Positions 11,439-41,276 are shown, numbered from the stretch's first letter. The stretch is 64,000 nucleotides of DNA from Candidatus Omnitrophota bacterium (GCA_022710715.1 JAKLGJ010000002.1:81977-145976); one strand, 5' to 3'. Notes: generated from the letters alone by a model not told the origin. Program-made: numbers and translations.

Positions 11439-12266
11439 CTACTTATTCGTCCGGATCACCAGGTAATCACCGTCCTGAACGACATACTCCTTCATCTCCA
11501 GACGCAGATGATTATTCGCGCGCGCCTTGGAGAGACTGCCGTCCCCACTCAAATCCTGATAACTGATCACTTCGGCACGGATGAAACCGCGCTGGATATC
11601 GGTATGAATCGCGCCGGCCGCGTCCCATGCTGTCGCGCCCTTCTTGATCGACCAGGCGTGGCTGTCCTTGTCTCCCGCGGTGAAAAAGCTGATGAATCCG
11701 CTCTGGTAATAAGCTTTAAAAAGCAATGCGTCCTTGTTTTCCAGGTCCTGATCGCCGGCAAGACAGACCGGCCGGATAGTCAGAAGAGAGCCTCCGGCGA
11801 TAAGATTCTTTTCCGCGTCACTTAAAGTCAGCTCATTGAGCAACCCTTCTTTGTCCAGATGTTCCTTAAACCGGCCCAGGAGCTTCTTTTCCGTTTCGTC
11901 CGTACAGCGGCTTAACCGCGTTTCCACAAATTCCATATCCGTTACGATCAGGTCGAGCTTCGCGGCTGCCGGACAGAGAATGCCGTCAGCTTCGATCAAC
12001 TTTGCCTCGTCGGTAATCACCTCAATCTGGATATAGACCTCTTTGGCGGAATTGAACATCTGTTTAAGCGTCTTGACCCGGTTATCGACCAGATTGGCCT
12101 TGCCTTGAGAAAACGCATCTATCTTGACTACTCCTAATTTCACCGTCGCTGCTCCTTTCTGGAAAACCGGCTTTGGCCGTGGGCTACTCCTGGTCTTCTT
12201 TATGCTGTTGCTGCGCCTGATAAGCGCTGATGATCGGATTGGCGATCTTGCCGGGCACCTGCTCAT
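11439..12266 (-). CDS. YchF-like protein lacking the P-loop G domain (helical + TGS/YchF_C domains only). Start codon uncertain, possibly internal at 12059.
   Basis: C-terminal half aligns to E. coli YchF residues ~200-363 (FTAGDKDSHAWSIKKGATAWDAAGAIHTDIQRGFIRAEVISY...LRLEMKEYVVQDGDYLVIR vs [42 protein letters not shown]...MRAEGKDYIVKDGDVMNF). No GxxxxGKS motif anywhere. The first ~27 codons of the track ORF overlap the upstream EF-G-like gene. Confidence 0.6.
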   Translation of the reverse strand: MSRCPARSPIRSSALIRRSNSIKKTRSSPRPKPVFQKGAATVKLGVVKIDAFSQGKANLVDNRVKTLKQMFNSAKEVYIQIEVITDEAKLIEADGILCPAAAKLDLIVTDMEFVETRLSRCTDETEKKLLGRFKEHLDKEGLLNELTLSDAEKNLIAGGSLLTIRPVCLAGDQDLENKDALLFKAYYQSGFISFFTAGDKDSHAWSIKKGATAWDAAGAIHTDIQRGFIRAEVISYQDLSGDGSLSKARANNHLRLEMKEYVVQDGDYLVIRTNK

Positions 12267-14124
12267 AATGCGAGAATTTCATAGTGTAGTTGCCCTTTCC
12301 CTGCGTCATCGAGCGCAGGTCGTTGCCGTAGGTAAACATTTCCGAAAGCGGAACGCTGGCCTTAATCACCTGAAGCTTGCCTTTCGCCTCCATACCCAGC
12401 GTGCGCCCGCGGCGGGAATTCAGGTCGCCGGACACCGGTCCCAGAAATTCATCCGTCACCATCACATCCACTTCCATGATCGGCTCCAGCAAGGCCGGTC
12501 CGGCTTCGAGCGCGGCTTTGCGCAAAGCGATCCCTCCGGCGCGCTGGAACGCCATATCCGACGAATCGACGTCGTGATAAGACCCGTCAAAAAGCGTTAC
12601 CGCAACATCGACCATGGGGTATCCGGCAATAACGCCCCCCAGCATCGCAGCCTTTACGCCCTTCTCTACCGAGGGAATGAAGTTCCGCGGGATTGCCCCG
12701 CCGACAATCTTATCGATAAACTCGAAACCCTTGCCGTGCTCAAGCGGATGGATCTCGATCCAGCAATCGCCGTACTGCCCACGTCCGCCGGACTGCCGCT
12801 TGAACTTCCCCTGCACCCTGGCTGTTCTGGTAATCGTTTCCTTGTACGGCACCTTGGGTTTGCCTACTTCAACATCGACATTAAACCGTTTCTTCAACCT
12901 GCCCATCATCACATGCAGATGCAGATCTCCGATACCGGAAACGATCATTTCCTTCGTCTCGGGATCGACGTGCTCCCGGAACGTGGGATCCTCGGCCACC
13001 AGCTTGGCCAGAGCCTGGGAGATCTTTTCTTCATCCTGACGGGTCTTGGGTTTGACCGAAGCGGACATCATCCCTTCAGGAAATTCGATGGGTTTGAAAA
13101 TCACCGGATGCGCCTGATCAGTCAACGAATCGTTGGTTACCGTCTGCTTTAATTTGGGAATGGCGATAATATCGCCGCAGGTGGCCGACTCGATAGCGCG
13201 CTGCTCCTTGCCCTGGAGAATATATAATTGACTGAAACGCTCCGGCGCTTTCTGCGTGGCATTATAGAAAGTGGTATTGGTATTTAATTTACCGGAAAAA
13301 ACCCGGATAATGCTTAATTGCCCGACGTACGGATCAATGATACTCTTAAAAACCATTGCGGAAAACGGCGCCGTCTCCGAAACGGACACTTCTCCCAGGT
13401 CCACCTGCAGGTTGGACCGCTCTTCCGGGGAAGCGCACAGATCCTGCACCGCTTTCAACAGCTCGTCGATGCCGTTATCGGTCAGCGCGGACCCGAACAG
13501 GATGGGAAACACCTTTGCGTTATAGACCGCTTTATGCAGACCGCTGTTGATTTCTTCCAGGCTCAATTTGCCGTCTGCAAGATATTTCTCCAGCAGCGCA
13601 TCGTCGCTTTCCGCCACAGACTCCATCAACTCTTCCAGGGAAGTCGAGTTCAACACTACCGCATTCTTGGAAAGCGTGCTGCGGATATCGGAGATGATTT
13701 TCTCTTTGTCAACCCCTTCTTTGTCGCTTTTATTCACAAAGATCAGCCGCGGCAACCCCATCTCATCGATCAGCTGCCACACTTTCTCGGTGCCGACTTC
13801 CACGCCGGCCCCGGCATCGATAACCACGATGGCGTTATCTGCCGCTCGGACTCCGGCCAGAACATCGCCGTAAAAATCGGCATAACCGGGAGTATCGATG
13901 AGTTGAATGCGTATATCCTGGTAATCGCAGAAAAGGAAACTGGCATTGATGGACGATTTACGCTCGATCTCGTCCCAGTTGTAATCGCTGACCGTGTTTC
14001 CTTCTGTGACCGAGCCCTTGCGAGAGGTCGCTTTGCATCTGAAAAGAAGGCTTTCGGCGAGAGAGGTTTTGCCGGCTTGAGCGTGTCCTAAAAGGACAAC
14101 GCTGCGCTTATGTTTGGCATCCAT
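12184..14124 (-). CDS. elongation factor G-like GTPase (divergent EF-G paralog)
   Basis: G1 GHAQAGKTS, G3 DTPGYADF, G4 NKSD, followed by EF-G domains II-V; 646 aa. The G motifs differ from canonical EF-G (GHVDAGKTT/DTPGHVDF/NKMD). Confidence 0.8.
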   Translation of the reverse strand: MDAKHKRSVVLLGHAQAGKTSLAESLLFRCKATSRKGSVTEGNTVSDYNWDEIERKSSINASFLFCDYQDIRIQLIDTPGYADFYGDVLAGVRAADNAIVVIDAGAGVEVGTEKVWQLIDEMGLPRLIFVNKSDKEGVDKEKIISDIRSTLSKNAVVLNSTSLEELMESVAESDDALLEKYLADGKLSLEEINSGLHKAVYNAKVFPILFGSALTDNGIDELLKAVQDLCASPEERSNLQVDLGEVSVSETAPFSAMVFKSIIDPYVGQLSIIRVFSGKLNTNTTFYNATQKAPERFSQLYILQGKEQRAIESATCGDIIAIPKLKQTVTNDSLTDQAHPVIFKPIEFPEGMMSASVKPKTRQDEEKISQALAKLVAEDPTFREHVDPETKEMIVSGIGDLHLHVMMGRLKKRFNVDVEVGKPKVPYKETITRTARVQGKFKRQSGGRGQYGDCWIEIHPLEHGKGFEFIDKIVGGAIPRNFIPSVEKGVKAAMLGGVIAGYPMVDVAVTLFDGSYHDVDSSDMAFQRAGGIALRKAALEAGPALLEPIMEVDVMVTDEFLGPVSGDLNSRRGRTLGMEAKGKLQVIKASVPLSEMFTYGNDLRSMTQGKGNYTMKFSHYEQVPGKIANPIISAYQAQQQHKEDQE

Positions 14125-14296: not shown

Positions 14297-15481
14297 TTAT
14301 TCCAGATAGGTATATACCGTTCCGGAAAAATTGCGCAACACATACTTACCTTTGGCTTCGGAAAGGATGTAATTGGGTCCGACCGGGATCTTCCCTCCGC
14401 CGCCAGGCGCATCAATGACATACGTGGGAACGGCGTAACCGGACGTATGACCGCGCAGTTTCTCGATAATGTTGATCCCGGTGCTGACCGGGGTGCGGAA
14501 ATGTTGCGTTCCCCGCACCGGATCGCACTGATAAATATAATACGGGCGCACCCTTATTTTAAGCAATTCATGCACCAGCTTGCGCATGATATGCGGCCGG
14601 TCGTTGATGCCCTTTAAAAGCACGGTCTGGCTGCCCAGGGGGATGCCGGCATCGGCCAGCATTTCGCAGGCATTCCTGGTGCGGCGGGTGATCTCTTTGG
14701 GATGGTTGAAATGTATGCTCATCCACAGCGGGCCGTACTTTTTGAGCGTGGCAATCAGGCTTTCGGTAATACGCTGCGGCAGGGTAACCGGCACGCGCGT
14801 TCCCAGCCGGACAAACTCGACATGCGGGATCGCCCGCAACCGCTTGAGCAATCCGCCGAGCACTTCTTCCTCCAGGATGAGCGGATCTCCGCCGGAAATC
14901 AACACATCCCTGATCTTCTTGTTGGATTGGATGTATTCGATCGCCTTATCCCAGCGTCCGGCGCCGGGATCTGCGTGTTCCTCCTGCCCGACAATCCTTC
15001 TGCGGGTACAATGCCGGCAATACATGGCGCAGGCTTCGGTAGACAGAAGCAGCACGCGGTCAGGATAACGATGGACCAGATGGGGCGCGGGCGAATCGCT
15101 GTCTTCGCCGCAGGGATCAGCCATCTCGTGAGGGCTGACATGGAATTCATCGGCCAGCGGGATGCACTGGCGGCGGATCGGACAATGCGGATCGTCCGGA
15201 TCGATAAGCGTTGCCCAGTACGGTGTAATAGCCATGGCCATCCTGCCTTTGGCGTTCCGGATGCCTTCCTCTTCGGAAGGAGTAAGGTTCACCACCTGGC
15301 TGATCTGATCCATCTTGGTGATGCGGTTGCGCATCTGCCAGCGCCAATCTTCCCAGTCCAGAGGATTGACATCCCGGTACAGGCTGATCTGCTGATAATC
15401 CCGCCCTCGCTTGCCCGGACGTATACCGACACCATTCTCTACGAGCGTTTTCTGCTGTTCGGTGGTCATGGTGTTAGCCAT
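14297..15481 (-). CDS. kamA: L-lysine 2,3-aminomutase (radical SAM, PLP-dependent)
   Basis: Near-collinear match to Clostridium KamA: DWEDWRWQMRNRI, CAMYCRHCTRRR (CxxxCxxC), ISGGDPLIL, HFRTPVSTGINIIEKLRGHTSGYAVPTYVIDAPGGGGKIPV. Confidence 0.92.
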   Translation of the reverse strand: MANTMTTEQQKTLVENGVGIRPGKRGRDYQQISLYRDVNPLDWEDWRWQMRNRITKMDQISQVVNLTPSEEEGIRNAKGRMAMAITPYWATLIDPDDPHCPIRRQCIPLADEFHVSPHEMADPCGEDSDSPAPHLVHRYPDRVLLLSTEACAMYCRHCTRRRIVGQEEHADPGAGRWDKAIEYIQSNKKIRDVLISGGDPLILEEEVLGGLLKRLRAIPHVEFVRLGTRVPVTLPQRITESLIATLKKYGPLWMSIHFNHPKEITRRTRNACEMLADAGIPLGSQTVLLKGINDRPHIMRKLVHELLKIRVRPYYIYQCDPVRGTQHFRTPVSTGINIIEKLRGHTSGYAVPTYVIDAPGGGGKIPVGPNYILSEAKGKYVLRNFSGTVYTYLE

Positions 15482-16481
15482 TTTTCATTTTCCTCCGTTG
15501 GAAGGCATTCATCAAAATGGAATTGATCAGGTCCTCGTATTTCATTCCGGCAGCGTACACCATCAATGGGAAATTCGACTCCTTGGGATTCAATCCCGGC
15601 AACGGATTGATCTCCAGAACGTACGGGATCCCGTGCTTGTTCAGGCGGATATCGGTCCGGGAGATATCGTAACAGCCGACGGCACGGTGGGTCTTCAATG
15701 CCGTTTCTTTAACCAGGGTTTCAGTAGCCTTATCCAGCCGGGCCGGACAATGGAATGTCGGGGTCAGCCCCTTGGCTTCATCGCCCTGGAATTCTTTCAT
15801 CCGCCAGGAATAAAAAAACTCTCCGCTCTTGGCGCAGGTAGAGAAATCGATCTCGAGTATCGGCAGGATCGTCGCGGTACCGTTCTCCAGAATACCCACG
15901 GTCAGCTCCGTCCCTTCGATGAATTCCTCCACGATCATCTCCTGGTGATAGCGGCCGATCAATTCCTTGAGCCGGCGATACAACGCGGTTGCATCGCTGA
16001 CAAAATTCTCTTTCATGATCCCCTTGGCCGACCCTTCCAGGTTAGGCTTGATGATCAGAGGAAAACACATCTGCGGATCAAGGGTTTCGGTTCCTTTGAC
16101 GAACACCTGGAACCGCGGGGTCGGAATGTTGTCGGCAATGAGGATTTTCTTGGTCATAGCCTTATTCAAAGCCAGCGCCAGAGAGAACGTATCCGAACCG
16201 GTATGGGGAATGTTGAGATATTCCAGGATCGCCGGGACCTGGGACTCGCGGAATTTGCCGCGGGTGCCCTCGGCGATGTTGAAGACCATGTCTACGGGGT
16301 TATTTTTAAAAAATGAGAGCAGGTTGGGATTGTCCGCTTCTACATGCGCCACGCTGTGACCGCGCGAGCGCAAAGCGCTGGAGATGGCGTTAATCGTTTC
16401 TTCGGAGTCAAACTCCGAGAAATAATCCGGAGGTTTGCTTTCGTCTTCTTTCTTGAGATTATAGGTAAGCGCTATCTTCAT
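15474..16481 (-). CDS. D-alanine--D-alanine ligase family ATP-grasp enzyme (paralog A)
   Basis: Ddl-family blocks: FNIAEGTRGKF...YLNIPHTGSD, IIKPNLEGSAKGI, RTDIRLNKHGIPYVLEINPLPGL; 335 aa. Start overlaps the paralog B stop and its own stop overlaps the kamA start (operon). Confidence 0.8.
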   Translation of the reverse strand: MKIALTYNLKKEDESKPPDYFSEFDSEETINAISSALRSRGHSVAHVEADNPNLLSFFKNNPVDMVFNIAEGTRGKFRESQVPAILEYLNIPHTGSDTFSLALALNKAMTKKILIADNIPTPRFQVFVKGTETLDPQMCFPLIIKPNLEGSAKGIMKENFVSDATALYRRLKELIGRYHQEMIVEEFIEGTELTVGILENGTATILPILEIDFSTCAKSGEFFYSWRMKEFQGDEAKGLTPTFHCPARLDKATETLVKETALKTHRAVGCYDISRTDIRLNKHGIPYVLEINPLPGLNPKESNFPLMVYAAGMKYEDLINSILMNAFQRRKMKNG

Positions 16482-17468
16482 TTACTGTATATTGTACCGT
16501 TTTAGCGCGGCCTGGAGGATCTTTCCGACGATATCCTCGTAGGTCATGCCGACCGCCTTAGCGAACAGCGGGAAAACATCTTCGGTGGACAAAGACGGTA
16601 ACGGGTTAATTTCCAGCACATAGGGATTCCCTTTTTCGTCCACCCGGAAATCTATTCTGCCGAAATCCAGGCATTCGATGGCCTGATAGGTCTTCAGCGC
16701 CAGAGTGGAAAGCTTATGCTGTAATTTCTCCGGTATCTGCGCCGGGCATACGTATTCCAGCGTATCGCTTTTGATGTGACCGAACGTGTAAAATTTATCC
16801 TTGAGCTTGAGCTTTCCGTCGATTTTAATCTGCACGATCGGCAAGACTTCCGGCGGATCGTTACCGACGACACCGACGGTAAACTCTTCCCCCCGGATGA
16901 ATTCTTCTACCAGCGCCGGCTGCTTATACGTATTAACGACAAATTCCACCTGTTTATACAGTTCTTCTTTATTTTCCACGCGGGACGCTTCACTCAACCC
17001 CTTGGAGGAACCTTCACAGCGCGGCTTGACAAAAAGCGGGAATTTCATATGATCCAGGCCGTGCAGAGATTCCATGTTTTTCACTTCGAGAAATCTCGGG
17101 GAAGGGATATCTTCGGAAAGGAACACTTTCTTGGCCATCACCTTATCCAGCGATAACGCCAGCGTCAGAGAGTCGGACCCGACATAGGGGATATTGGCCA
17201 TCTCAAGCAGGATGGGCACCTGGGACTCGCGATTGCGACCGACAAGACCTTCGGAAATATTAAAAACGATATCCACCTTGATCTTGTCCAGCGTCTCCAG
17301 AACTTTAGCGACATTGCCGATTTTATGGACTTCGAAACCGTTCGCCTTGATCGCTTTGGCGATGACATCGATAGTACTGGGATGATCGAATTCCGCATTT
17401 GCGTCCGGAGGATCGTTTTCTTTAAAACGGTAATCGGTTTTCAGGTCGTATGTCAGCCCGACTTTCAT
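16482..17468 (-). CDS. D-alanine--D-alanine ligase family ATP-grasp enzyme (paralog B)
   Basis: Same Ddl-family blocks (FNISEGLVGRNRESQ, FVKPRCEGSSKGL, RIDFRVDEKGNPYVLEINPLPSL); 328 aa. Tandem with paralog A. Confidence 0.8.
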   Translation of the reverse strand: MKVGLTYDLKTDYRFKENDPPDANAEFDHPSTIDVIAKAIKANGFEVHKIGNVAKVLETLDKIKVDIVFNISEGLVGRNRESQVPILLEMANIPYVGSDSLTLALSLDKVMAKKVFLSEDIPSPRFLEVKNMESLHGLDHMKFPLFVKPRCEGSSKGLSEASRVENKEELYKQVEFVVNTYKQPALVEEFIRGEEFTVGVVGNDPPEVLPIVQIKIDGKLKLKDKFYTFGHIKSDTLEYVCPAQIPEKLQHKLSTLALKTYQAIECLDFGRIDFRVDEKGNPYVLEINPLPSLSTEDVFPLFAKAVGMTYEDIVGKILQAALKRYNIQ

Positions 17469-17490: not shown

Positions 17491-17524
17491 AAACAAAAAA
17501 AGGCTCTGCCAACTGAAAGAGCCA
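17491..17524 (-). terminator. Rho-independent terminator (minus strand)
   Basis: Minus strand reads GGCTCTTTCAGTTGGCAGAGCC followed by TTTTTTTGTTTT. Lies between the UPF0280 gene and the start of the ddl-like/kamA operon. Confidence 0.55.
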
Positions 17525-17675
17525 TTATGCACTGCCTACGTTTTTCAATTGACCTTTTACAACCTCCTCTGGCGTTCATCTACTTCATTACAACGTCATT
17601 TTTATCATACTGGCGGTTTTTGTCAAGCATTTTTTCTCGTCGAGAAATGCGGTTTTTTTTATAATTCTTTTCGGC

Positions 17676-18413
17676 TCATGCGAGCGTGATACCGCCCCAG
17701 GTCGCCATGCGGTCATCCTTTATGATCAGCACGCCTTTAACCCCGCGAATCGACCGCGCAAAGGCGATTGCCGTCGGAAAATCCGCCGCTGCTTGCACGC
17801 GGTTCCCCACCGCGGTGGCTACCGCATCCGCCAGCACCGCACCGGGACAGAGAATGCTTACCCCATCCGCCTGCCCGAAGCTCAACGAGTGGCCGACGGT
17901 CCCCGAAGAAGTGCACAGGCCGGCGGGAGTCTGGCGGGGATCGATGCGCAAGCGCAGTTTTCCCGACAATGCGGACGACCCCGCAAAAATGCCCACGGTC
18001 ACCGGCCGGGAAATTTTCAGGAAGATATCCCCTCCGTTCTCCACGATCACATCCCGATACCCCTTACGCAGCAAGGCTTTGCCCAGATACTGCGCGATGG
18101 CTCCGGCCACCGCAGCCATCGGCCCCACTCCGGCTCGAGCGGCTCCCCGGGCCATATCCCGGACAATCGCAGCGGCGCGCGCTTCCACGGGAATCGGCTT
18201 CAAGGAGGTAAGGAACCGCTTATCCTTACAGTGGATATAGCGCTCAATCGCGCCCCGGTAAGCGCGGATACGCGCTTCGGCAAACCGGCAGTCCAGCGGT
18301 TTGTCGGTCATGATCTGAACGTCGGTTTCTGCCACCATGATTTCCTGCGCAAATAACCGGCGGGAGTAACGCCATTTTCGGTAAAAACGCGGCTGGTATC
18401 CTGGCTGTTTCAT
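17676..18413 (-). CDS. UPF0280 / ApbE-like family protein
   Basis: 245 aa with a GPMAAVAGAIAQ glycine-rich segment and overall resemblance to the archaeal-type UPF0280 family; assignment is from memory of the family pattern. Confidence 0.4.
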   Translation of the reverse strand: MKQPGYQPRFYRKWRYSRRLFAQEIMVAETDVQIMTDKPLDCRFAEARIRAYRGAIERYIHCKDKRFLTSLKPIPVEARAAAIVRDMARGAARAGVGPMAAVAGAIAQYLGKALLRKGYRDVIVENGGDIFLKISRPVTVGIFAGSSALSGKLRLRIDPRQTPAGLCTSSGTVGHSLSFGQADGVSILCPGAVLADAVATAVGNRVQAAADFPTAIAFARSIRGVKGVLIIKDDRMATWGGITLA

Positions 18414-18437
18414 GTGTACGGCTGATTGGTTGAAGAG

Positions 18438-19064
18438 TTATCCTTCCGGCGCGACCCCGCAGGAAAGCAAGTCGCGTTGAAGCTGCTCTACCCCGGTATA
18501 TACAAAAGCGCGCAGGCCCAGCGCAGCGGCAGCGGCGATCAGCTCGGCCCGGTCATCGACATAGAACGTTTCCTGGGGAGCGCTGCCCATTGCGTCAAGC
18601 GCGGCGCGGTAAATGCGCGGATCTGGTTTAGTCATTCCCAGAGCGTACGAGGTAAAAATGCAGTCAAAAACGTCAAAAACGGGGAAGGCGGTGCGCAGAT
18701 ACTCGAAATGCAGTTTGTTCACATTGGAAAGCAATCCCACCCGATAACGGCCGCGCAGGCTCTTTGCCAGTTGATACACCCGCTTATTGTGATCATTCAT
18801 GAAGAATATACCGTTCCAGATGCGCACGAACTCGCGAAAACCGATATCGATCCCCGTCTGCCGTTTGATCTGCGCGAAAAACGCTTCCGGCGTAAGGGCG
18901 CCTTCTTCAAAACGCATCACGAGTGCGGAGTTAAAAAAGAAGTCGAACAGTTCCTGCGGGCTACGGGTACTGCGGGCGGCAATGGCACGGGCGGCGATTA
19001 GATGGTCGAAATCGATCAACACCCTGCCCAGGTCGAAGAGTACGCAACGGATGGGACTCGGCAC
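18438..19064 (-). CDS. HAD-superfamily hydrolase, subfamily IA
   Basis: Motif I CVLFDLGRVLIDFD (DxD-type nucleophile), motif II LLSN, motif IV YVDD; 208 aa. Confidence 0.75.
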   Translation of the reverse strand: MPSPIRCVLFDLGRVLIDFDHLIAARAIAARSTRSPQELFDFFFNSALVMRFEEGALTPEAFFAQIKRQTGIDIGFREFVRIWNGIFFMNDHNKRVYQLAKSLRGRYRVGLLSNVNKLHFEYLRTAFPVFDVFDCIFTSYALGMTKPDPRIYRAALDAMGSAPQETFYVDDRAELIAAAAALGLRAFVYTGVEQLQRDLLSCGVAPEG

Positions 19065-20029
19065 TAATTATTATTACCTTTTGATTTTTTAAACAGGTCC
19101 AGGAACCGATCTTCGTAATCCTTATAGACATTCCACTTATCCAGCTCGAATTTCAGTTCATTCGCCTTGGTGATATCATTCTTGGCCTGGAGAAAAAGCT
19201 TCTCGATCTTTTCCTTGATCGAAACAGGCAGTTTGGTAAGCTGACTCAGCGATTTCTTGATCTTTTCGATCTCATCTTCGCCGATAGGGCCGGGCGTGGG
19301 GCCGACCTTGAGATAATCCAGCAAGCCGTTGATCTGGCCTTCCATCGCATGCGCCTGTTCCGTGAGATCGGTAAAATCAAAACTCATCCCCAGCACGCCG
19401 GCAAGCACTTCCAGTACTGCCTGGGACGCTTTGGGATTTTCAATCTGAATAGTATAGAGCGGAATCTCGCCCAGCAGGCAAAACCCGTGGAATCCTTCCT
19501 GTTTGGCCATTCCCAGGAACAACCCGTTCAGCCCGCTGATATGACCTTCCTGCAACATCTGGGCGTTGCATTTTTTAAGCATGGCATTGAGATCTTTGGA
19601 GGTCGCGCTGTACCAAACCGCGGGATTCTGATTGTGGTCGATCGGCTGGGGCATGGCGGCGAAACTGACGACGGTCTTTACTTTGAAGCTCTTCGCCAGG
19701 CTCATAATCCGATTACAGTACTCCTCGGCCCGGATCAGATCCGGCTGGGCGTCGCTGATAAAGATGATCAGGTCGTTTTTTCCGGTTTTGCTCTTGTGGA
19801 AATAAAATTTGTTGAACGGCAATTCAGGCAGGTCGAGCACGCCCTCATGGATATAACTTTCTACCAGATAAAAGAAATCCTTGCTGGGGATTTCGGCAAA
19901 TTCCTCGGCTTTAAGCTTATCTACAAGATACGTTGCCGCCCTGAACGCGACTTCTCCCATCCCCGGCCAGGCTACCAGAAGATAGGGCGTCTTCAGACGC
20001 GGCCTTTTAGTGATTTTGATTCCTTCCAT
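19064..20029 (-). CDS. PAC2-family (proteasome assembly chaperone 2-like) protein
   Basis: N-terminal LLVAWPGMGEVAFRAATYLV resembles the conserved PAC2 G-P-G-x-G-x-V-G start; size (321 aa) fits bacterial PAC2 proteins. Confidence 0.45.
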   Translation of the reverse strand: MEGIKITKRPRLKTPYLLVAWPGMGEVAFRAATYLVDKLKAEEFAEIPSKDFFYLVESYIHEGVLDLPELPFNKFYFHKSKTGKNDLIIFISDAQPDLIRAEEYCNRIMSLAKSFKVKTVVSFAAMPQPIDHNQNPAVWYSATSKDLNAMLKKCNAQMLQEGHISGLNGLFLGMAKQEGFHGFCLLGEIPLYTIQIENPKASQAVLEVLAGVLGMSFDFTDLTEQAHAMEGQINGLLDYLKVGPTPGPIGEDEIEKIKKSLSQLTKLPVSIKEKIEKLFLQAKNDITKANELKFELDKWNVYKDYEDRFLDLFKKSKGNNN

Positions 20030-20079
20030 GAAACACGTTCTCCTTTCTCGATTATTCTATACCAAAGCTGCGGGATTGG

Positions 20080-21207
20080 CTAACTAAATTTAAAAGTTTT
20101 CAGGAATCGCTCTAAAACCCGGGCTCCTTTATACAGATTATCCAGCGTGATATACTCATTGGACAGGTGCGCGCAACCGCTGCAGCCGAACCCCGTCGCT
20201 ACGGCGGGAATGCCGTACTCCTGAAAGAAGGTGATGACCGTTGCCCCCTCGGAACCGGCGATATGCGGCCGGACGCCGCTGTCTCGCATCGCCCGGGACA
20301 GCGAAGCGACCAGCGGATGCGTGCGGTCAATCAGGTACGGTTGCTGCACGCCCTCGATCTCGATATCCCAGGAATGCGCGTGCGCGCGCACAATCCGCTT
20401 TATATCGCGCAACACTTTCTGATGCGACATCCCGGGCAGGAAGCGTACGTCGAGCTCGAACTCACACCACCCGGCCACCACATTGACCTTGTCCCCGCCG
20501 CGGATCGTGCCGATATTCATCGTGGGAGGCCGTAAGAAAGGATTCCGGCGAAAGCTGAACCGGTAACGCCGCAACTGCTGCAGAATATCCATCGCCTTCT
20601 CGATGGCGTTAACCCCCAGCCAGGGATATGCGCCATGGGCTTTCCTGCCCCGGATGGTCACCTTCAAATGCATCAATCCCTTTTGCGCCACCACGATCTC
20701 AAAATCATCGGCATCAAGCACCGCGACAGCGTCCGGCCGCAGCATGCCTTTTTGTATCAGCGGGATCAGCCCGTGCGTCGAACCGCTCTCTTCGTCGGCA
20801 GTGGCGGCGAATATCAACGTATACCCTAATCGATGCTTGTCTTCCGCCAGGCTGCGTAACACTTCCAGGGCCACGGCAAGATTGCCTTTGCAATCGGTCG
20901 AGCCCAGACCGAATAGCTTGCCGCCTTTGACCACGGCGGTAAAAGGATCTGTTTTCCAGCCCCCGCCGGCGGGAACGGTGTCCAGGTGCGGCGTGATCAA
21001 CAGCGACTTGCGGCACGCGGTGCCGGGCAACGTTGCGATCACGTTCGGCCGCCGATCATGGAATTCGTGCAGACGGACCGGAATGCGGCAGGCGCGGCAG
21101 AACTGTTTAACCCAGCGCGCAACGCGCACTTCATTGCCGGTGGGATTCTCGGAATTGATGCCGATCAATGCGGAGAGCGTCTGGACCAGGCGAGCGCGGT
21201 TAATCAT
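20080..21207 (-). CDS. M20-family metallopeptidase (ArgE/DapE-like deacylase)
   Basis: Metal-binding blocks TPHLDTVPAG, GSTDCKGN, ADEESG and a dimerisation domain; 375 aa. Confidence 0.8.
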   Translation of the reverse strand: MINRARLVQTLSALIGINSENPTGNEVRVARWVKQFCRACRIPVRLHEFHDRRPNVIATLPGTACRKSLLITPHLDTVPAGGGWKTDPFTAVVKGGKLFGLGSTDCKGNLAVALEVLRSLAEDKHRLGYTLIFAATADEESGSTHGLIPLIQKGMLRPDAVAVLDADDFEIVVAQKGLMHLKVTIRGRKAHGAYPWLGVNAIEKAMDILQQLRRYRFSFRRNPFLRPPTMNIGTIRGGDKVNVVAGWCEFELDVRFLPGMSHQKVLRDIKRIVRAHAHSWDIEIEGVQQPYLIDRTHPLVASLSRAMRDSGVRPHIAGSEGATVITFFQEYGIPAVATGFGCSGCAHLSNEYITLDNLYKGARVLERFLKTFKFS

Positions 21208-29272: not shown

Positions 29273-30090
29273 AAAGCCTCCAGTTCAACAATATGGTCGA
29301 TTTTGAACGTGCGTTCTTCATTGCGCAGACAACAGAACCCTACCAGATAGACTCCCCTGTCCTGGCGTCTGATCTCGCGGGGAATTACTTCTCGCCGGGT
29401 CATCTGGGCATCGGTTGTCGAAAGATATTTTATCCTAAGTCTGGCGCCCAAGTCAATCGCTTCCTGGATCTCTGCTATTTTCTGATTCTGGACATCCTCA
29501 AGAGCGCTGAAGTTCAGGCTGAATAAACGCAGGAAGGTTTTAAAATCATGTATCCCTTTTTCCCGCAGCATGCCGGCCAACCGCATAAAAACCGCCCAGG
29601 TCAACTCAACATCGGAAAGCGCGCGGTGCTTTTGCTCGGCGGAAAAACCCAGATGCTGCGCCACAAACCATAAGGCGTGCCGGGGAAGCCCGGGGAGCAA
29701 TCGACGGGACATGGTGAGAATATCCACTGCCGGACGATCGGCAAGCGGCTGTTTGCCGATAAGGCGCAGTTCGCTGTTAAGAAACCCCAGGTCAAAGGGC
29801 ATATTATAGGAACAGATACAACTCTCTTTCACAAAATCGAGGAACCCCGGCATCGCCTCTTCTATCGGCGGCGCGTCGCGCAGCATCTCCTGCGATATCC
29901 GGTTTACCGCGAATGCGCCGGGAGAAACTTCGCGCCGGGGATTGACCAGCGTCTGAAAAGTGGCGAGTTTCTGCGTGCCCCGGCACTTCAAAGCCGCCAG
30001 TTCGATCACCCGGTCCCCGCAGGCCGGATTCAAACCGGTGGTCTCGGTATCCACAATGGCGAACTCGACATCCTCAATGGCGCGGTGCAT
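29269..30090 (-). CDS. DEDD-family 3'-5' exonuclease (DnaQ/epsilon-like) with C-terminal WYL-like domain
   Basis: Exo I FAIVDTETTGL, Exo II/III with HxAxxD (HRALSDVE). C-terminal ...RREVIPREIRRQDRGVYLVGFCCLRNEERTFKIDHI fits the WYL-domain pattern (R...P..l...g.WYL.g.c....e.R.FrldRI). Start taken at the internal Met; the track ORF's 5' end overlaps the next gene. Confidence 0.7.
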   Translation of the reverse strand: MHRAIEDVEFAIVDTETTGLNPACGDRVIELAALKCRGTQKLATFQTLVNPRREVSPGAFAVNRISQEMLRDAPPIEEAMPGFLDFVKESCICSYNMPFDLGFLNSELRLIGKQPLADRPAVDILTMSRRLLPGLPRHALWFVAQHLGFSAEQKHRALSDVELTWAVFMRLAGMLREKGIHDFKTFLRLFSLNFSALEDVQNQKIAEIQEAIDLGARLRIKYLSTTDAQMTRREVIPREIRRQDRGVYLVGFCCLRNEERTFKIDHIVELEAL

Positions 30091-31000
30091 CACTGCTATC
30101 CTTTCTTCTCTGGACGATATAACTGGGAACCAGCCGTACCGGACGGTAGGAAAGTTTGACCTTCTTAAGGTTCTCCAGGCCCGAATCATCCATGGCATTG
30201 ATGAAAGCGTGCTCGCCGAGATCCCGGCTGAACCGCTGAAAGATAAACTGGCTTAAGCCTTTGACCGACAGATCGGCGACCTCATACAGTATACAGAATA
30301 TGTCCGGATTAAGTTTGTATCCGCAGGTAAAGGCTTTGACCTGCCGATCCACGGTAACCACGCGGCCCTCTATATCCAGGGCGTCGTAATGCGCGAATAC
30401 CGTTTCCAGCGTCTTGAGCGTATCCTGCAGCATCCCGCAATACACATGGTCCGGCGTCTGCCGGCTGCGTTGATCCATCCAGGAGCGGTAAAGCGCCAGG
30501 CAGGCGGCGGCCTGCTGACGGCGCAGCCGCTGATAAACAAAACGATACTGCCGGGTAAAGTAATTAACGCTGGCGCGTTTGGATTTAAAAGCATCTCCTT
30601 TTAGCTGCGCCAGTGAGGAGCGGGTATACAGATAATCATACGATTTAAAAACCGACTCCAGCCCGAAGCTGCGCAACCGTTCAAGGGCGGGCTCTTCTAC
30701 ATTCTCGATGCGGGACACGGTTTTATTCCGGTTGAAACGGTCCATGATCGAGAACGCCTTCTCCACGATGCGCGGAGTCGCTTCCCGGCCCAGAGGAGGA
30801 AGATAGAGAAAACACCCCAGGGAATCTTTAAAAAAGACACACAGGCTGCCGTCAATGAGCGTCCAGCGAATATCGTAGAGCGGCGTCCAGTTGTAGATGG
30901 AGGCAAAGGAATAAACCGCCAGTTCATGTTCCCGGCAGCGCAGGAATCGCTCGAACAGTTTTTTATCGGCCAGCTGCAGAGGATTAAGGTCGGCTCTCAT
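30074..31000 (-). CDS. DUF2156-like protein (aminoacyl-phosphatidylglycerol synthase C-domain-like / GNAT-fold)
   Basis: 308 aa soluble protein; the resemblance to the MprF C-terminal DUF2156 family is from memory only, so low confidence. Confidence 0.35.
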   Translation of the reverse strand: MRADLNPLQLADKKLFERFLRCREHELAVYSFASIYNWTPLYDIRWTLIDGSLCVFFKDSLGCFLYLPPLGREATPRIVEKAFSIMDRFNRNKTVSRIENVEEPALERLRSFGLESVFKSYDYLYTRSSLAQLKGDAFKSKRASVNYFTRQYRFVYQRLRRQQAAACLALYRSWMDQRSRQTPDHVYCGMLQDTLKTLETVFAHYDALDIEGRVVTVDRQVKAFTCGYKLNPDIFCILYEVADLSVKGLSQFIFQRFSRDLGEHAFINAMDDSGLENLKKVKLSYRPVRLVPSYIVQRRKDSSDAPRH

Positions 31001-36323: not shown

Positions 36324-36940
36324 GCCGCCACCTCGAGCGCTTCCAGAGCTTCGATCTTCCGCTTGGCGATTTTGCTGCGGCCGACGGCATTAGCCATCTG
36401 GTCGCCGATATAGATCTTGATCCTGCGGATCGCGTCCTGGGCTTCGGGGATCTTGACTTTCTCGAACAGATTCACCCGCTGCGTCGTGATGCGTAATTCG
36501 CGTTTAAGCGTTTCGATCGCTTGAACCATCACCCGGATCTCTTCGCGCAAGACCACCTGTTCGCGCAGGAATTCCAGCGCGCCGTCCACCCACGCCGGCG
36601 TCAGGAAAAGGTCGTATGCGGCGTCGGTAAAGCGCGCCCGCTCAAAAACCGGCAGGTCTACCCCGGCGACATTCCTGACGCCGGCGATGATTTCTGCGGG
36701 GACCAGCCACGGTTTGAATGCGGGCAGATCGATCTCGGTCAGCAATCCCGCCCAGACCATGGCCGCGGCTTTCTTCACCTCAAGCTGACGCTGTTTTTCC
36801 AGCGCCGCCGCGTTCAAGTGCAGGATCTCTATCTGAAGCTGCTGCTTTTTAAGCTGCAGCGTCGGCAGGTAACGCTCGAACTGCTTGAGCGCATCCCGCT
36901 GCTTCTTCAATTCTCCCTTGGTCAGCTTTATCTTTGCCAT
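36320..36940 (-). CDS. atpD: V-type ATP synthase subunit D
   Basis: Start at internal Met (MAKIKLTKGELKKQRDALKQ...). Long coiled-coil rotor-stalk protein of ~206 aa, located downstream of subunit B. Confidence 0.8.
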   Translation of the reverse strand: MAKIKLTKGELKKQRDALKQFERYLPTLQLKKQQLQIEILHLNAAALEKQRQLEVKKAAAMVWAGLLTEIDLPAFKPWLVPAEIIAGVRNVAGVDLPVFERARFTDAAYDLFLTPAWVDGALEFLREQVVLREEIRVMVQAIETLKRELRITTQRVNLFEKVKIPEAQDAIRRIKIYIGDQMANAVGRSKIAKRKIEALEALEVAA

Positions 36941-36991
36941 ACTAAACCCGTTCGCGCCGGCTTCTCCCGGTTCTCGCAGCACCGGCAATCT

Positions 36992-40037: not shown

Positions 40038-40058
40038 TCCTTTGATCTCTACCCGTGT

Positions 40059-40586
40059 TTAATCGGCGGCCAGGGCCTGCTCCAGCGCCGCGTTCTTATC
40101 CGCGGCGGCAATATGTTCCCAGCGCCAGAGAATACGCAGTTGCAACGCATATACCAGCAGCGCTTCCAGATCGAAAAAATGCCCCGCGGCGAGCTCGTCC
40201 AGCTTCCGCCAGCGCTCCTGGTCGAGGAATAGCTCGGATTCGATCAATGACGGGATGCGGTGACTGTTCATGGCGCTGTGATACACCGCGATATCCCCGC
40301 TTCCGTCGGGCCGTAGATAGCTGGCCGGATCGAGTTTCTTGCGGCTGGCGCGGATCTTAACCAGCTCATTGCGCAGCTCTATTTCAAAAGCCAGCCACTG
40401 CCGCAACAATGCGTGCTCCGGGGGCTGGCCCGCGAGGATATCCCGGGCGCAGACACGCACCGCCTGCAGATCTTTTTCGCCAACGGCATCCTGACATGTC
40501 TGGAGGAACCGTTGAAAAGAAAACGGCGGCTTTGCGCCGAAATGCAGCATCGGCAGGCTCGCCATGAGAAAATAATACGCGGACAT
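40059..40586 (-). CDS. V-ATPase-operon associated hypothetical protein (DUF2764-like)
   Basis: 175-aa soluble helical protein located between subunits E and A. In Chlamydia/spirochaete-type V-ATPase operons a conserved hypothetical occupies exactly this slot. Assignment is by context. Confidence 0.4.
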   Translation of the reverse strand: MSAYYFLMASLPMLHFGAKPPFSFQRFLQTCQDAVGEKDLQAVRVCARDILAGQPPEHALLRQWLAFEIELRNELVKIRASRKKLDPASYLRPDGSGDIAVYHSAMNSHRIPSLIESELFLDQERWRKLDELAAGHFFDLEALLVYALQLRILWRWEHIAAADKNAALEQALAAD

Positions 40587-40590
40587 CGTC

Positions 40591-41193: not shown

Positions 41194-41199
41194 GTTGAC

Positions 41200-41276
41200 T
41201 CCTTGCCTACAGAGGCAATACCCGCGCAATTCCGATCTGCGCGGGGTATACACGCAGAGGCAATACCCGCGCAATT
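41200..41276. repeat. palindromic leader repeat (copy A), immediately 5' of the atpE start codon
   Basis: Identical to 31829..31905 except for 1-2 positions. Contains the inverted repeat ATACCCGCGCA/TGCGCGGGGTAT twice and supplies the SD (reverse complement of TCC...). Confidence 0.85.

What the first reader, a model, noticed from the sequence alone, without database searches (positions are those of the whole stretch)
14297..17468. Operon coupling lysine 2,3-aminomutase (kamA) to two tandem D-Ala-D-Ala-ligase-family ATP-grasp enzymes
Three tightly coupled minus-strand genes with start/stop overlaps: ddl-like B, ddl-like A, kamA. KamA makes beta-lysine (an established radical-SAM reaction). 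The known fates of beta-lysine are acetylation (AblB/YodP acetyltransferases), EF-P lysylation (EpmA, an aaRS paralog) or fermentation (KamDE); none of these uses Ddl-family ATP-grasp ligases. Two paralogous ATP-grasp ligases immediately upstream suggest ATP-dependent condensation of beta-lysine into a dipeptide or oligomer, or onto a D-Ala-like acceptor (for example a beta-lysine-containing compatible solute, a poly-beta-lysine, or a cell-wall modification). This linkage is not a described pathway as far as I know. Neither paralog sits in a dcw/mur context, which argues against a housekeeping Ddl role.
Basis: partly seen in the sequence, partly recalled or inferred. Interest (0 to 1): 0.68.

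Follow-up and report, generated by a model that had tools for sequence, protein, structure and literature searches.

The report
Beta-lysine synthase coupled to Ddl-like ligases
Three co-transcribed genes in an uncultured Omnitrophota bacterium pair the enzyme that makes beta-lysine with two ATP-dependent ligases that look like, but are not, the cell-wall enzyme D-Ala-D-Ala ligase; the same pairing recurs across several bacterial phyla and in an archaeon, and points to an undescribed pathway for a beta-lysine-containing peptide.

Summary
On the minus strand lie three genes: a 328-aa and a 335-aa ATP-grasp ligase with the D-Ala-D-Ala ligase (Ddl) fold, then a 394-aa KamA-family radical-SAM aminomutase. 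The genes abut or overlap. They follow a conserved promoter, leader and terminator.

- **The aminomutase** keeps every lysine-specific residue of Clostridium lysine 2,3-aminomutase. It lacks that enzyme's zinc-binding C-terminal part.
- **The ligases** keep the ATP-grasp catalytic residues. They fail every curated Ddl/Van model and lack the D-Ala-specific residues. They form a separate family.
- **The linkage is functional, not chance.** KamA lies within 700 bp of a ligase gene in 68 of 71 informative species-level genomes. The pairing occurs in Omnitrophota, Elusimicrobia, Thermodesulfobacteriota, Acidobacteriota, an archaeon and a cultured Thioflavicoccus plasmid. Three independent KamA–ligase gene fusions exist.
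- **Variants** add a GNAT acetyltransferase. Related fused ligases pair with BapA/DmpA-type beta-aminopeptidases.

The best reading is that L-lysine is converted to beta-lysine, which is then ligated with ATP into a small beta-lysine-containing peptide, possibly an organic cation or compatible solute. The product is inferred, not shown. Ten literature searches found no description of this cassette.

The parts
17598..17626 (-). Sigma-70-like promoter of the cassette (TTGACA, 17 nt, AAAAAT; an overlapping GATAAAAAT -10-like box is conserved in relatives)
   Evidence: Consensus scan. The same CTTGACA...TG(T/A)GATAAAAAAT arrangement appears upstream of the first ligase gene in many Omnitrophota loci.
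17495..17597 (-). Conserved 5' leader. It holds GGAGG (17567..17563), TTGAAAAA (17548..17541), and a terminator-like hairpin GGCTCT/AGAGCC (17523..17502) followed by T7 (17501..17495). It ends about 27 nt before the ATG. Probably an attenuator-type regulatory leader; mechanism unknown.
   Evidence: Read from the sequence. The motif order is conserved in at least 30 of 79 loci, including loci with different upstream genes. No Rfam family matches. Overall folding energy is not better than shuffles (z = 0), so only the terminator hairpin is supported as structure.
16482..17468 (-). Ligase B: a type-1 Ddl-fold ATP-grasp ligase (328 aa), the paralogue most constantly linked to KamA
   Evidence: PF07478 at 6e-41; best Ddl model scores 204.6 against a cut-off of 243. 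AlphaFold model pLDDT 95.6; the best PDB matches are Ddl at TM about 0.8 and 20-26% identity. Catalytic residues are conserved and family signatures N70, E73, R80, E81, D268, R275, D297 are present.
15474..16481 (-). Ligase A: a second type-1 Ddl-fold ATP-grasp ligase (335 aa). It is a deep paralogue of B (41% identity) with an intact catalytic set.
   Evidence: It is absent from about 21 genomes that keep only ligase B plus KamA. In other lineages two ligase modules are fused into one polypeptide: 25 of the 147 (of the best 150) family representatives that matched the family profile built here.
14297..15481 (-). Short, zinc-site-less lysine 2,3-aminomutase (KamA family, 394 aa), which makes beta-lysine from L-lysine
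   Evidence: PDB 2A5H at 1e-149. TIGR03820 scores 525.7 against 525.4; Glu- and Arg-2,3-aminomutase and EpmB models are below cut-off. The CxxxCxxC motif, Arg134, Asp293, Asp330 and Lys337 are invariant in 71 orthologues. Cys268 is replaced and the C-terminal ~50 residues are missing in all.

Best explanation
This is a self-contained biosynthetic cassette for a beta-lysine-containing amide or peptide.

**Step 1 (strongly supported by sequence).** The KamA protein is a radical-SAM, PLP-dependent lysine 2,3-aminomutase that converts free L-lysine to beta-lysine (3,6-diaminohexanoate).

**Step 2 (inferred).** The two Ddl-fold ATP-grasp ligases use ATP to turn a carboxylate into an acyl phosphate and join it to an amine.
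- Ddl enzymes are dimers, and in other lineages two ligase modules are fused into one chain. So the two ligases probably work as an A/B pair.
- Beta-lysine is one substrate. By analogy with Ddl, which joins two copies of one amino acid, the simplest product is beta-lysyl-beta-lysine (or beta-lysyl-lysine).
- The second paralogue either extends this to a short oligomer or adds a different amino acid.

**Step 3 (seen only in other lineages).**
- A GNAT acetyltransferase caps an amine.
- M20 or BapA/DmpA-type peptidases recycle the product.

**Proposed role (weakest step).** The product is a cytoplasmic organic cation or compatible solute, or a nitrogen store. Expression is controlled through the conserved promoter, leader and terminator.
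For: **KamA is lysine-specific.**

**The ligases are catalytically intact but are not Ddl.**
- The equivalents of E. coli DdlB K97, K144, E180, R255, D257, E270 and N272 are invariant, as is E15, which binds the substrate amine.
- H63, the K215/Y216 loop and S281/L282 are replaced.
- Most of the newly conserved residues are acidic (E73, E81, D268, D297; D28, already aligned to an acidic residue in E. coli DdlB, is also conserved). This fits di-amino substrates.

**Functional coupling.**
- KamA lies within 700 bp of a ligase in 68 of 71 informative genomes, even where all other neighbours differ.
- The cassette is present in Elusimicrobia, Thermodesulfobacteriota, Acidobacteriota, an archaeal MAG and Thioflavicoccus mobilis.
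- Three independent KamA–ligase fusions occur, in both orders.

**A small-peptide product.**
- In L094 a KamA::ligase fusion is followed by a ligase::GNAT fusion, next to Na+/H+ exchangers.
- In L098 the order is KamA, ligase, ligase, GNAT, with an M20 amidohydrolase nearby.
- Tandem-fused ligases in two lineages are followed by an overlapping or closely adjacent BapA/DmpA beta-aminopeptidase homologue. The two peptidases are only 42% identical to each other. That family is characterised on beta-amino-acid peptides (PMC9235088).
- In T. mobilis the ligase sits with enzymes that make two other diamino acids: a DABA transaminase and SbnA/SbnB for 2,3-diaminopropionate.
- Rhizobial plasmids pair a KamA-family gene with an L-amino-acid-ligase-type ATP-grasp. 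This is a convergent use of the same logic.
Against: - No assay was run. That beta-lysine is a ligase substrate rests on gene linkage and fusion only.
- The window cassette has no acetyltransferase, transporter or dedicated peptidase inside the operon.
- The M20 gene is four genes upstream and is syntenic only within Omnitrophota.
- The S58-linked tandem ligases examined have no KamA within 8 kb, so they may use another substrate, such as beta-alanine or a D-amino acid.
- An osmolyte role is poorly motivated for organisms recovered largely from groundwater, lake and subsurface samples.
- High conservation (50-79% identity across the phylum) in a core-genome neighbourhood would also fit a housekeeping macromolecular role.
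- I could not inspect model coordinates, so the placement of the signature residues in the pocket comes from alignment only.
Confidence: 0.55

Rival explanations
1. Protein modification. The ATP-grasp ligase activates beta-lysine as an acyl phosphate and attaches it to a lysine (or a carboxylate) of a translation factor or ribosomal protein. This would be an EpmA-independent counterpart of EF-P beta-lysylation, or of RimK-type tailing.
For: - Translation genes lie next to the cassette in several phyla:
  - an EF-G paralogue and a P-loop-less YchF-like gene in Omnitrophota;
  - infB in Elusimicrobia;
  - an RlmI-like methyltransferase and AspRS in Thermodesulfobacteriota;
  - ribosomal protein genes and CysRS in the archaeon;
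  - a class-I aminoacyl-tRNA synthetase in L095.
- The cassette is self-contained and highly conserved, as expected for a housekeeping modification.
- Precedents from established knowledge are EpmA/EpmB–EF-P and RimK–S6.
Against: - No efp or epmA lies within 10 kb in about 85 loci.
- KamA is of the free-lysine LAM type, not EpmB (252.5 bits against a cut-off of 369.3).
- About 5 of 9 independent contexts have a translation gene nearby. That is roughly what chance gives for 8 or so neighbours in small genomes (my estimate).
- The closest fold is Ddl, a small-molecule ligase with a lid loop.
- The GNAT, BapA/DmpA, SbnA/B and DABA-transaminase partners point to small molecules.
- EF-G has its own promoter and is missing from many loci.
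Confidence: 0.12
2. Specialised secondary metabolite. The cassette makes a bioactive beta-lysine peptide (antibiotic-like or siderophore-like) rather than a physiological solute.
For: - The T. mobilis version is plasmid-borne. It sits with SbnA/SbnB, which supply 2,3-diaminopropionate for staphyloferrin B and the tuberactinomycins (pathway roles from established knowledge).
- Rhizobial symbiotic plasmids carry KamA plus a LAL-type ligase.
- Beta-lysine occurs in streptothricin and viomycin (established knowledge).
Against: - In Omnitrophota the cassette lies in a conserved core neighbourhood (purH, folC, mnmE, EF-G). It is present in essentially every sampled species, with 50-79% identity.
- There is no exporter, resistance gene or tailoring gene.
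Confidence: 0.15
3. Cell-envelope role. One or both ligases is the organism's real D-Ala-D-Ala ligase, or they build a beta-lysine-containing peptidoglycan stem or bridge.
For: - The Ddl fold and PF07478 match.
- Source databases label the proteins D-alanine--D-alanine ligase.
- I could not establish whether a canonical ddl exists elsewhere in this genome (one search is uninformative).
Against: - All Ddl/Van NCBIfam models score below cut-off.
- The GGxSxEHEVS loop, H63, the K215/Y216 loop and S281/L282 are not conserved.
- There is no mur or dcw gene nearby.
- The same cassette occurs in an archaeal contig beside L31e and S19e.
- Fusion to KamA and to a GNAT is not expected for a housekeeping Ddl.
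Confidence: 0.06
4. No functional link: the adjacency is inherited gene order within one phylum.
For: Most of the 80 loci are Omnitrophota, and close relatives share the whole neighbourhood.
Against: - The pairing survives where all flanking genes differ.
- It is found in at least five other lineages, including an archaeon.
- It is fixed as gene fusions three times.
Confidence: 0.02

Closest known systems
AblA/AblB pathway (lysine 2,3-aminomutase plus beta-lysine acetyltransferase, giving the compatible solute N-epsilon-acetyl-beta-lysine in methanogens and some bacteria)
   Same: - The first enzyme is the same: the window KamA just passes the AblA equivalog model.
- It is a short, self-contained cassette that turns lysine into a beta-lysine derivative.
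- Some variants of the present cassette also carry a GNAT.
   Different: - No AblB-type gene is in the window.
- The partner enzymes are ATP-grasp ligases, which form amide bonds at the cost of ATP, rather than an acetyl-CoA transferase.
- The KamA here lacks the C-terminal zinc-site region.
D-alanine--D-alanine ligase (Ddl) and the VanA-type ligases
   Same: Same three-domain ATP-grasp fold (TM about 0.8) and the same catalytic residues. The mechanism is probably the same, with an acyl-phosphate intermediate.
   Different: - 20-30% identity, and below every curated Ddl/Van threshold.
- Substrate-specificity residues are replaced by a family-specific, mostly acidic set.
- No cell-wall gene context.
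- Present in an archaeon.
EpmB/EpmA EF-P beta-lysylation
   Same: A KamA-family aminomutase supplies beta-lysine to an ATP-dependent ligase.
   Different: - The ligase is an ATP-grasp enzyme, not a LysRS paralogue.
- The aminomutase is LAM-type, not EpmB-type.
- No efp linkage.
NAGGN synthesis (Ngg, a GNAT plus ATP-grasp bifunctional enzyme that makes the dipeptide osmolyte N-acetylglutaminylglutamine amide), carnosine synthase (an ATP-grasp enzyme joining beta-alanine to histidine) and L-amino acid ligases (BacD, RizA, TabS)
   Same: - ATP-grasp enzymes that make free di- or oligopeptides, including ones with a beta-amino acid donor.
- A ligase::GNAT fusion like Ngg occurs in the L094 variant.
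- Carnosine synthase yields ADP plus Pi (PMC9235088).
   Different: - These belong to different ATP-grasp clades. The window proteins have no LAL_C2 domain, and their only solved-structure match outside Ddl is a weak one (E 2e-4) to the L-amino acid ligase BL00235.
- None of them is linked to an aminomutase.
Streptothricin and tuberactinomycin beta-lysine incorporation
   Same: Beta-lysine made by a lysine 2,3-aminomutase is condensed into (oligo)peptide chains. Co-occurrence with 2,3-diaminopropionate supply resembles the T. mobilis cluster.
   Different: Those pathways use NRPS or stand-alone adenylation enzymes in actinomycete antibiotic clusters. No NRPS is present here.

Membership tests
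D-alanine--D-alanine ligase (Ddl, EC 6.3.2.4) | Scores above the curated family thresholds (NCBIfam NF002378, TIGR01205 and the equivalogs) | tested here: not met
   Ligase B scores 204.6 against 243 and 175.3 against 245.65. Ligase A scores 184.8 against 243 and 155.8 against 245.65. All Van models are far below cut-off.
D-alanine--D-alanine ligase (Ddl, EC 6.3.2.4) | Three-domain ATP-grasp fold with the ATP- and Mg-binding and catalytic residues (E. coli DdlB K97, K144, E180, R255, D257, E270, N272) | tested here: met
   PF07478. Foldseek finds Ddl structures at TM 0.72-0.82. The residues are invariant in both paralogue clades.
D-alanine--D-alanine ligase (Ddl, EC 6.3.2.4) | D-Ala-site residues: the N-terminal GGxSxEHEVS loop, His63, the Lys215/Tyr216 omega loop and Ser281/Leu282 | tested here: not met
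   Only the equivalents of Glu15 and Ser150 are kept. H63 becomes an invariant Glu, the omega loop is not conserved, and S281 becomes Asp (B) or Asn (A). The residue roles are from established Ddl literature, recalled rather than re-read.
D-alanine--D-alanine ligase (Ddl, EC 6.3.2.4) | mur/dcw gene context, or being the only Ddl homologue in a peptidoglycan-bearing organism | tested here: inconclusive
   No mur or dcw gene lies within +/-10 kb, and the cassette occurs in an archaeon. Whether a canonical ddl exists elsewhere in the genome could not be checked.
D-alanine--D-alanine ligase (Ddl, EC 6.3.2.4) | Synthesis of D-Ala-D-Ala | not testable with these tools
   Needs an enzyme assay or complementation.
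Lysine 2,3-aminomutase (KamA/AblA, EC 5.4.3.2) | Radical-SAM CxxxCxxC cluster and the PLP-binding lysine (Lys337 of 2A5H) | tested here: met
   Conserved in the window protein and in all orthologues next to ligases (70 of 71 for Lys337; the one exception is an alignment gap).
Lysine 2,3-aminomutase (KamA/AblA, EC 5.4.3.2) | Lysine-specific binding residues Arg134, Asp293 and Asp330 (Lys and Asn in glutamate 2,3-aminomutase) | tested here: met
   Conserved in the orthologues (all 71 for Arg134 and Asp293; 70 of 71 for Asp330, the exception being an alignment gap). The Glu- and Arg-aminomutase models score below cut-off. The residue roles are from established literature, recalled.
Lysine 2,3-aminomutase (KamA/AblA, EC 5.4.3.2) | Equivalog model TIGR03820 above cut-off | tested here: met
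   525.7 against 525.4, so only just. The Acidobacteriota and archaeal orthologues score 515 and 481, below cut-off, because the C-terminus is missing.
Lysine 2,3-aminomutase (KamA/AblA, EC 5.4.3.2) | C-terminal domain with the inter-subunit zinc site (Cys268 plus a C-terminal CxCxxC) of the Clostridium enzyme | tested here: not met
   The alignment to 2A5H ends at residue 367. Cys268 is R, K, D or E in all orthologues, and any C-terminal tails are short or low-complexity. The zinc ligand identities are recalled from the 2A5H paper, not re-read.
AblA/AblB N-epsilon-acetyl-beta-lysine pathway | Adjacent AblB-type GNAT acetyltransferase | tested here: not met
   No GNAT lies within +/-10 kb of the window cassette. 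Generic GNATs occur in the L094 and L098 variants, with no hit reported to an AblB-type model.
EpmA/EpmB EF-P beta-lysylation system | EpmB-type aminomutase, an EpmA (LysRS paralogue) and linkage to efp | tested here: not met
   The EpmB model scores 252.5 against 369.3. tblastn with E. coli EF-P and EpmA finds nothing except AspRS in the window and about 85 loci.
Lysine fermentation pathway (KamA, KamDE, Kdd, Kce, Kal) | Adjacent beta-lysine 5,6-aminomutase and downstream enzymes | tested here: not met
   The neighbours are an EF-G paralogue, a YchF-like gene, purH, folC, M20, PAC2, HAD and AbpE_bact.
L-amino acid ligases (LAL; BacD/RizA/TabS type) | ATP-grasp_3/4 core with the LAL_C2 C-terminal domain | tested here: not met
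   The window ligases have no LAL_C2 hit, and the best PDB LAL match is E 2e-4. A true LAL-type enzyme does accompany a KamA-family gene on rhizobial plasmids.

The most novel reading that the evidence does not exclude
The Ddl-fold ligases do not make a free metabolite. Instead they transfer beta-lysine onto a protein of the translation apparatus, such as EF-P, the adjacent EF-G paralogue or a ribosomal protein. That would be an ATP-grasp, acyl-phosphate route to protein beta-lysylation, evolved independently of EpmA and shared by Omnitrophota, Elusimicrobia, Thermodesulfobacteriota, Acidobacteriota and some archaea.
Probability: 0.12. Interest if true: 0.9.

Novelty: new variant of a known kind. 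Interest (0 to 1): 0.7.

Why it matters
Beta-lysine has only a few known fates: acetylation to an osmolyte, EF-P modification, fermentation, and NRPS antibiotics. This cassette would add an ATP-grasp-dependent fate.

It would also define a large unannotated family. About 1,200 cluster representatives (clusters at 50% identity) match at E<=1e-30, and public databases currently label many of them D-alanine--D-alanine ligase. That label distorts inferences about cell walls in uncultured phyla, including Omnitrophota.

The cassette is small (two or three genes) and its first step has commercially available substrates. A cultured carrier of a related version exists, Thioflavicoccus mobilis 8321. 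The hypothesis is therefore directly testable.

The product could be a new beta-peptide solute or polyamine-like cation that is central to the physiology of very small, uncultured bacteria.

Tried and rejected
**Literature.** Ten full-text searches combined aminomutase or KamA, ATP-grasp, D-alanine ligase, beta-lysine, Omnitrophota and EF-P. None returned a paper describing this linkage. One search on 'AbpE' was wasted. The Iyer et al. 2009 amidoligase survey (PMC3268129), which might mention such a neighbourhood, is not held.

**Database searches.**
- Rfam on the window and on the leader gave only three tRNAs.
- The AFDB fold library was unavailable.
- Searching relatives of the Thermodesulfobacteriota and Acidobacteriota ligases for a cultured host returned only MAGs.

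**Analyses that led nowhere.**
- The EF-P hypothesis was tested by looking for efp or epmA in all flanks. None was found.
- A canonical ddl was sought in 1.47 Mb of fetched flanks. None was found, but this is uninformative.
- A mini-ORF or leader-peptide reading of the leader was considered and not adopted. The GGAGG-to-TTG spacing is 13-14 nt and the ORFs are 3-20 codons of variable sequence.
- No consensus RNA structure beyond the terminator was found.

Full report
**What is in the sequence**

Three ORFs lie head to tail on the minus strand: 17468..16482 (328 aa, 'ligase B'), 16481..15474 (335 aa, 'ligase A') and 15481..14297 (394 aa, KamA).
- B and A abut: TAA is followed directly by ATG.
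- A and KamA overlap by 8 nt.
- Both ligases match Pfam Dala_Dala_lig_C (6e-41 and 3e-33).
- The third protein matches Radical_SAM plus LAM_C.
- The ligases are 41% identical to each other.

The organism is an uncultured Omnitrophota bacterium. The best homologues, at 70-79% identity, are all from Candidatus Omnitrophica/Omnitrophota MAGs. The identical protein is on a 914-kb contig and in 13 other assemblies.

**The aminomutase**

The protein aligns over residues 32-394 with Clostridium subterminale lysine 2,3-aminomutase (PDB 2A5H, E 1e-149).
- It just passes the AblA equivalog model (525.7 against 525.4).
- It fails the glutamate-, arginine- and EpmB-type models.

I collected 71 orthologues that lie next to a ligase gene.
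- The CxxxCxxC cysteines, Arg134, Asp293, Asp330 and the PLP lysine Lys337 are conserved in all (one sequence has an alignment gap at Asp330 and Lys337).
- From the LAM literature, recalled rather than re-read, Asp293 and Asp330 hold the epsilon-ammonium of lysine and are Lys and Asn in glutamate 2,3-aminomutase. These are therefore lysine-type enzymes.
- All of them stop at or just after the equivalent of residue 367.
- All have replaced Cys268. They therefore lack the inter-subunit zinc site of the Clostridium enzyme (the ligand identities are recalled). This is a distinct short subfamily.

**The ligases are Ddl-fold but not Ddl**

- Every NCBIfam Ddl/Van model scores below its cut-off. The best is 204.6 against 243 for B and 184.8 against 243 for A.
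- The closest solved proteins are true Ddl enzymes at about 25-30% identity.
- An AlphaFold model of ligase B (pLDDT 95.6) matches Ddl structures with TM 0.72-0.82 and 20-26% identity. Every one of the 50 best matches listed is a Ddl or Van-type ligase.

I aligned 35 family members with E. coli DdlB.
- The ATP-grasp catalytic set is invariant (equivalents of K97, K144, E180, R255, D257, E270 and N272). So are Glu15, which binds the substrate amine, and Ser150.
- The glycine-rich N-terminal loop, His63, the Lys215/Tyr216 loop and Ser281/Leu282 are replaced.
- In their place is a family signature: AEFD ... FNIAEGxxGRNRE(S/A)QVP ... EGSSKG. Its invariant residues are N70, E73, R80, E81, P85, D268 and R275, plus D297 in B and N in A.
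- Both window paralogues keep all catalytic residues, so neither is a pseudoenzyme.
- Most of the newly fixed residues are acidic, which suits di-amino substrates. This is an inference from alignment only, because I could not measure distances in the model.

**Size and structure of the family**

A search of 1.84 billion cluster representatives gave 1,198 proteins at E<=1e-30.
- Of the best 150, 147 matched the family profile I built.
- 25 of those are tandem fusions of two ligase modules.
- A neighbour-joining tree, rooted on E. coli DdlB, places the Omnitrophota A and B proteins in separate deep clades. The two halves of the fused proteins also fall in separate clades.

Motif comparison shows two ligase types.
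- **Type 1** carries the signature above. It comprises both window ligases, both archaeal ones, the first Acidobacteriota ligase and the first Thermodesulfobacteriota ligase.
- **Type 2** carries FNLCE(S/G) ... ED(A/G)S(V/L)G ... AKW. It comprises the second ligase of Acidobacteriota and Thermodesulfobacteriota, the ligase::GNAT fusion of L094, and T. mobilis.

**Is the link to KamA functional?**

A scan of one genome per species returned at least 513 relatives. I analysed the best 80 loci.
- KamA lies within 700 bp of a ligase gene in 68 loci: 47 with two ligases and 21 with one.
- Nine loci end too early to tell.
- Three lack KamA: two Firmicutes and L082.

Within Omnitrophota the pairing persists down to 50% ligase identity and in loci where all other neighbours differ. 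Outside that phylum the arrangements are:

| Lineage | Arrangement |
|---|---|
| Elusimicrobia | ligase – KamA |
| Thermodesulfobacteriota | ligase – [histidine kinase, sigma-54 regulator, response regulator] – KamA – ligase |
| Acidobacteriota | KamA – ligase – ligase – GNAT, with overlapping genes |
| Archaeal MAG | ligase – ligase – KamA, beside ribosomal proteins L31e and S19e |
| Thioflavicoccus mobilis 8321 plasmid pTHIMO01 (cultured purple sulfur bacterium) | DABA transaminase – SbnA – SbnB-like – ligase, with KamA convergent |

Most tellingly, KamA and a ligase are fused into one polypeptide three times, in both orders and in three different assemblies: P0189, P0220 and P0267. Chance synteny is excluded.

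**What the partners say about the product**

No other gene is universally linked, so the cassette is self-contained. The lineage-specific partners are informative.
- **Acetyltransferase.** A GNAT appears twice independently: fused to the second ligase in L094, next to Na+/H+ exchangers, and as a separate overlapping gene in L098.
- **Beta-aminopeptidase.** Two divergent tandem-fused ligases are each followed by an overlapping or closely adjacent Peptidase_S58 gene.
  - The two peptidases are only 42% identical to each other.
  - One of them, checked against solved structures, matches the beta-peptidyl aminopeptidase BapA (3N2W, 1.5e-76) and DmpA (1B65, 4e-75).
  - These enzymes are known for acting on peptides with N-terminal beta-amino acids such as carnosine (PMC9235088).
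- **M20 hydrolases.** An M20 deacylase lies upstream in Omnitrophota and an M20 amidohydrolase lies nearby in Acidobacteriota.
- **Other diamino acids.** In T. mobilis the neighbours make two other diamino acids.
- **Convergent pairing.** On rhizobial symbiotic plasmids a KamA-family gene (with Asp330 changed to Cys) is followed by a true L-amino-acid-ligase-type ATP-grasp with an LAL_C2 domain.

Together these favour a small peptide or amide built from beta-lysine. In some lineages it is acetylated, and peptidases turn it over.

**Mechanism proposed**

- *Shown by sequence:* the cassette encodes a lysine-type 2,3-aminomutase and two catalytically intact ATP-grasp ligases that are not Ddl, and the genes are functionally coupled.
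- *Inferred:* L-lysine is converted to beta-lysine. A ligase phosphorylates a carboxylate, most simply that of beta-lysine, whose beta-amine would sit on the conserved Glu15 equivalent. The ligase then couples it to an amine, most simply that of a second beta-lysine or lysine, as Ddl does with two D-alanines.
- *Role of the second paralogue:* it either forms the other half of a heterodimer (Ddl is a dimer, and the natural fusions support pairing) or catalyses a second ligation.
- *Function:* a role as an organic cation, compatible solute or nitrogen store is the weakest step.

My confidence in each claim:

| Claim | Confidence |
|---|---|
| The genes are functionally coupled | ~0.9 |
| KamA is a lysine 2,3-aminomutase | ~0.85 |
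| The ligases are not Ddl | ~0.85 |
| The product is a small molecule | ~0.6 |
| The product is a beta-Lys–beta-Lys dipeptide or oligomer | ~0.25 |

**Rivals**

- **Protein beta-lysylation.**
  - *For:* translation genes lie next to the cassette in several phyla.
  - *Against:* about 5 of 9 independent contexts is what chance would give. No efp or epmA lies within 10 kb of any of about 85 loci. The EF-G paralogue has its own promoter and is absent from many loci. The partner genes point to small molecules.
- **Cell wall.** Contradicted by the failed Ddl tests, the lack of mur context and the archaeal occurrence. I could not check for a canonical ddl elsewhere in the genome.
- **Secondary metabolite.** Plausible for the plasmid-borne versions. 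It fits poorly with the core-genome, phylum-wide conservation in Omnitrophota.

**Regulation (side finding)**

Upstream of ligase B is a conserved arrangement, in this order:
1. a promoter (TTGACA at 17626);
2. about 35 nt of spacer;
3. GGAGG (17567..17563);
4. a further 14 nt;
5. TTGAAAAA (17548..17541);
6. a GC hairpin plus T7 (17523..17495);
7. the ATG, about 27 nt later.

The same order is seen in at least 30 of 79 loci, including ones with unrelated upstream genes. It matches no Rfam family. It has no significant overall fold. A terminator between a promoter and its operon suggests attenuation. The signal is unknown.

**Novelty**

The enzyme superfamilies are known. The family, its pairing with KamA and the implied pathway are not described in any paper I could search (ten searches). 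No NCBIfam model names the ligases.

Public records label them 'D-alanine--D-alanine ligase' or 'ATP-grasp domain-containing protein'. The first label is very probably wrong.

I rate this a new variant of a known kind: ATP-grasp amino-acid ligation joined to an aminomutase. Interest is 0.7.

Noticed in passing
window 17495-17626 (minus strand): A conserved promoter–leader–terminator lies upstream of the cassette: GGAGG, 13-14 nt, (A/G)TTG(G/A)AAAA, about 20 nt, a GGGCTC/GAGCCC hairpin and a T-run. It is found in at least 30 of 79 Omnitrophota loci. It matches no Rfam family and has no significant global fold. It is possibly a new attenuator or riboswitch-like leader, or a small RNA.
   Followed up: partly
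window 12184-14124 and 11439-12266 (minus strand): Directly downstream of KamA lies a 646-aa EF-G paralogue. It scores below the TIGR00484 EF-G cut-off and has its own TTGACC/TATAAT promoter. Next is a YchF-like protein that matches only the C-terminal (TGS-like) part of YchF, with no recognisable P-loop. The pair is conserved in many but not all Omnitrophota loci.
   Followed up: partly
window 17676-21207 (minus strand): A conserved upstream block, in the same orientation within Omnitrophota only, runs M20 ArgE/DapE-family deacylase, PAC2-family protein, HAD phosphatase, then a 245-aa AbpE_bact (PF27030) protein related to PDB 2O34 of unknown function. The M20 enzyme could recycle an acylated or peptidyl beta-lysine, but the link was not tested.
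   Followed up: partly
L092 10200-11432, L093 10200-11432, L096 5226-6368: Tandem-fused members of the ligase family (682-724 aa) are each followed by an overlapping or closely adjacent BapA/DmpA-type (Peptidase_S58) beta-aminopeptidase gene. There is no KamA within 8 kb. This may be a synthesis and hydrolysis pair for a different beta- or D-amino-acid peptide.
   Followed up: partly
L101 3560-9041 (Thioflavicoccus mobilis 8321 plasmid pTHIMO01): A cultured organism carries a cluster of DABA transaminase, SbnA, SbnB-like enzyme, Ddl-like ATP-grasp and a short KamA. Three different diamino-acid suppliers sit around one ligase. This is a candidate experimental system.
   Followed up: partly
L102 6962-9421 (Sinorhizobium americanum CCGM7 plasmid B) and similar rhizobial symbiotic plasmids: A KamA-family gene, with the lysine-binding Asp330 changed to Cys, is followed by an L-amino-acid-ligase-type ATP-grasp (LAL_C2). 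This is a convergent aminomutase-plus-ligase pair with probably a different substrate. Separately, a type-2-like Ddl-fold ATP-grasp lies next to a CapA-family gene on pNGR234a (L100).
   Followed up: partly
window 30074-31000 (minus strand) and neighbours to 32003: A stand-alone LPG_synthase_C domain protein (the aminoacyl-phosphatidylglycerol synthase catalytic domain, without the MprF membrane part) lies next to a small tRNA_bind-domain protein and a CxxCxxCC protein.
   Followed up: no
window 55909-63900 (minus strand): A 2,663-aa ORF has no Pfam match at E<=1e-5. It may be one of the giant proteins typical of Omnitrophota.
   Followed up: no
window 34554-41283 (minus strand): A V/A-type ATPase operon (E, A, B, D, I and c subunits) in a bacterial genome is followed by pyrimidine biosynthesis genes (pyrF, pyrD, carB).
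   Followed up: no
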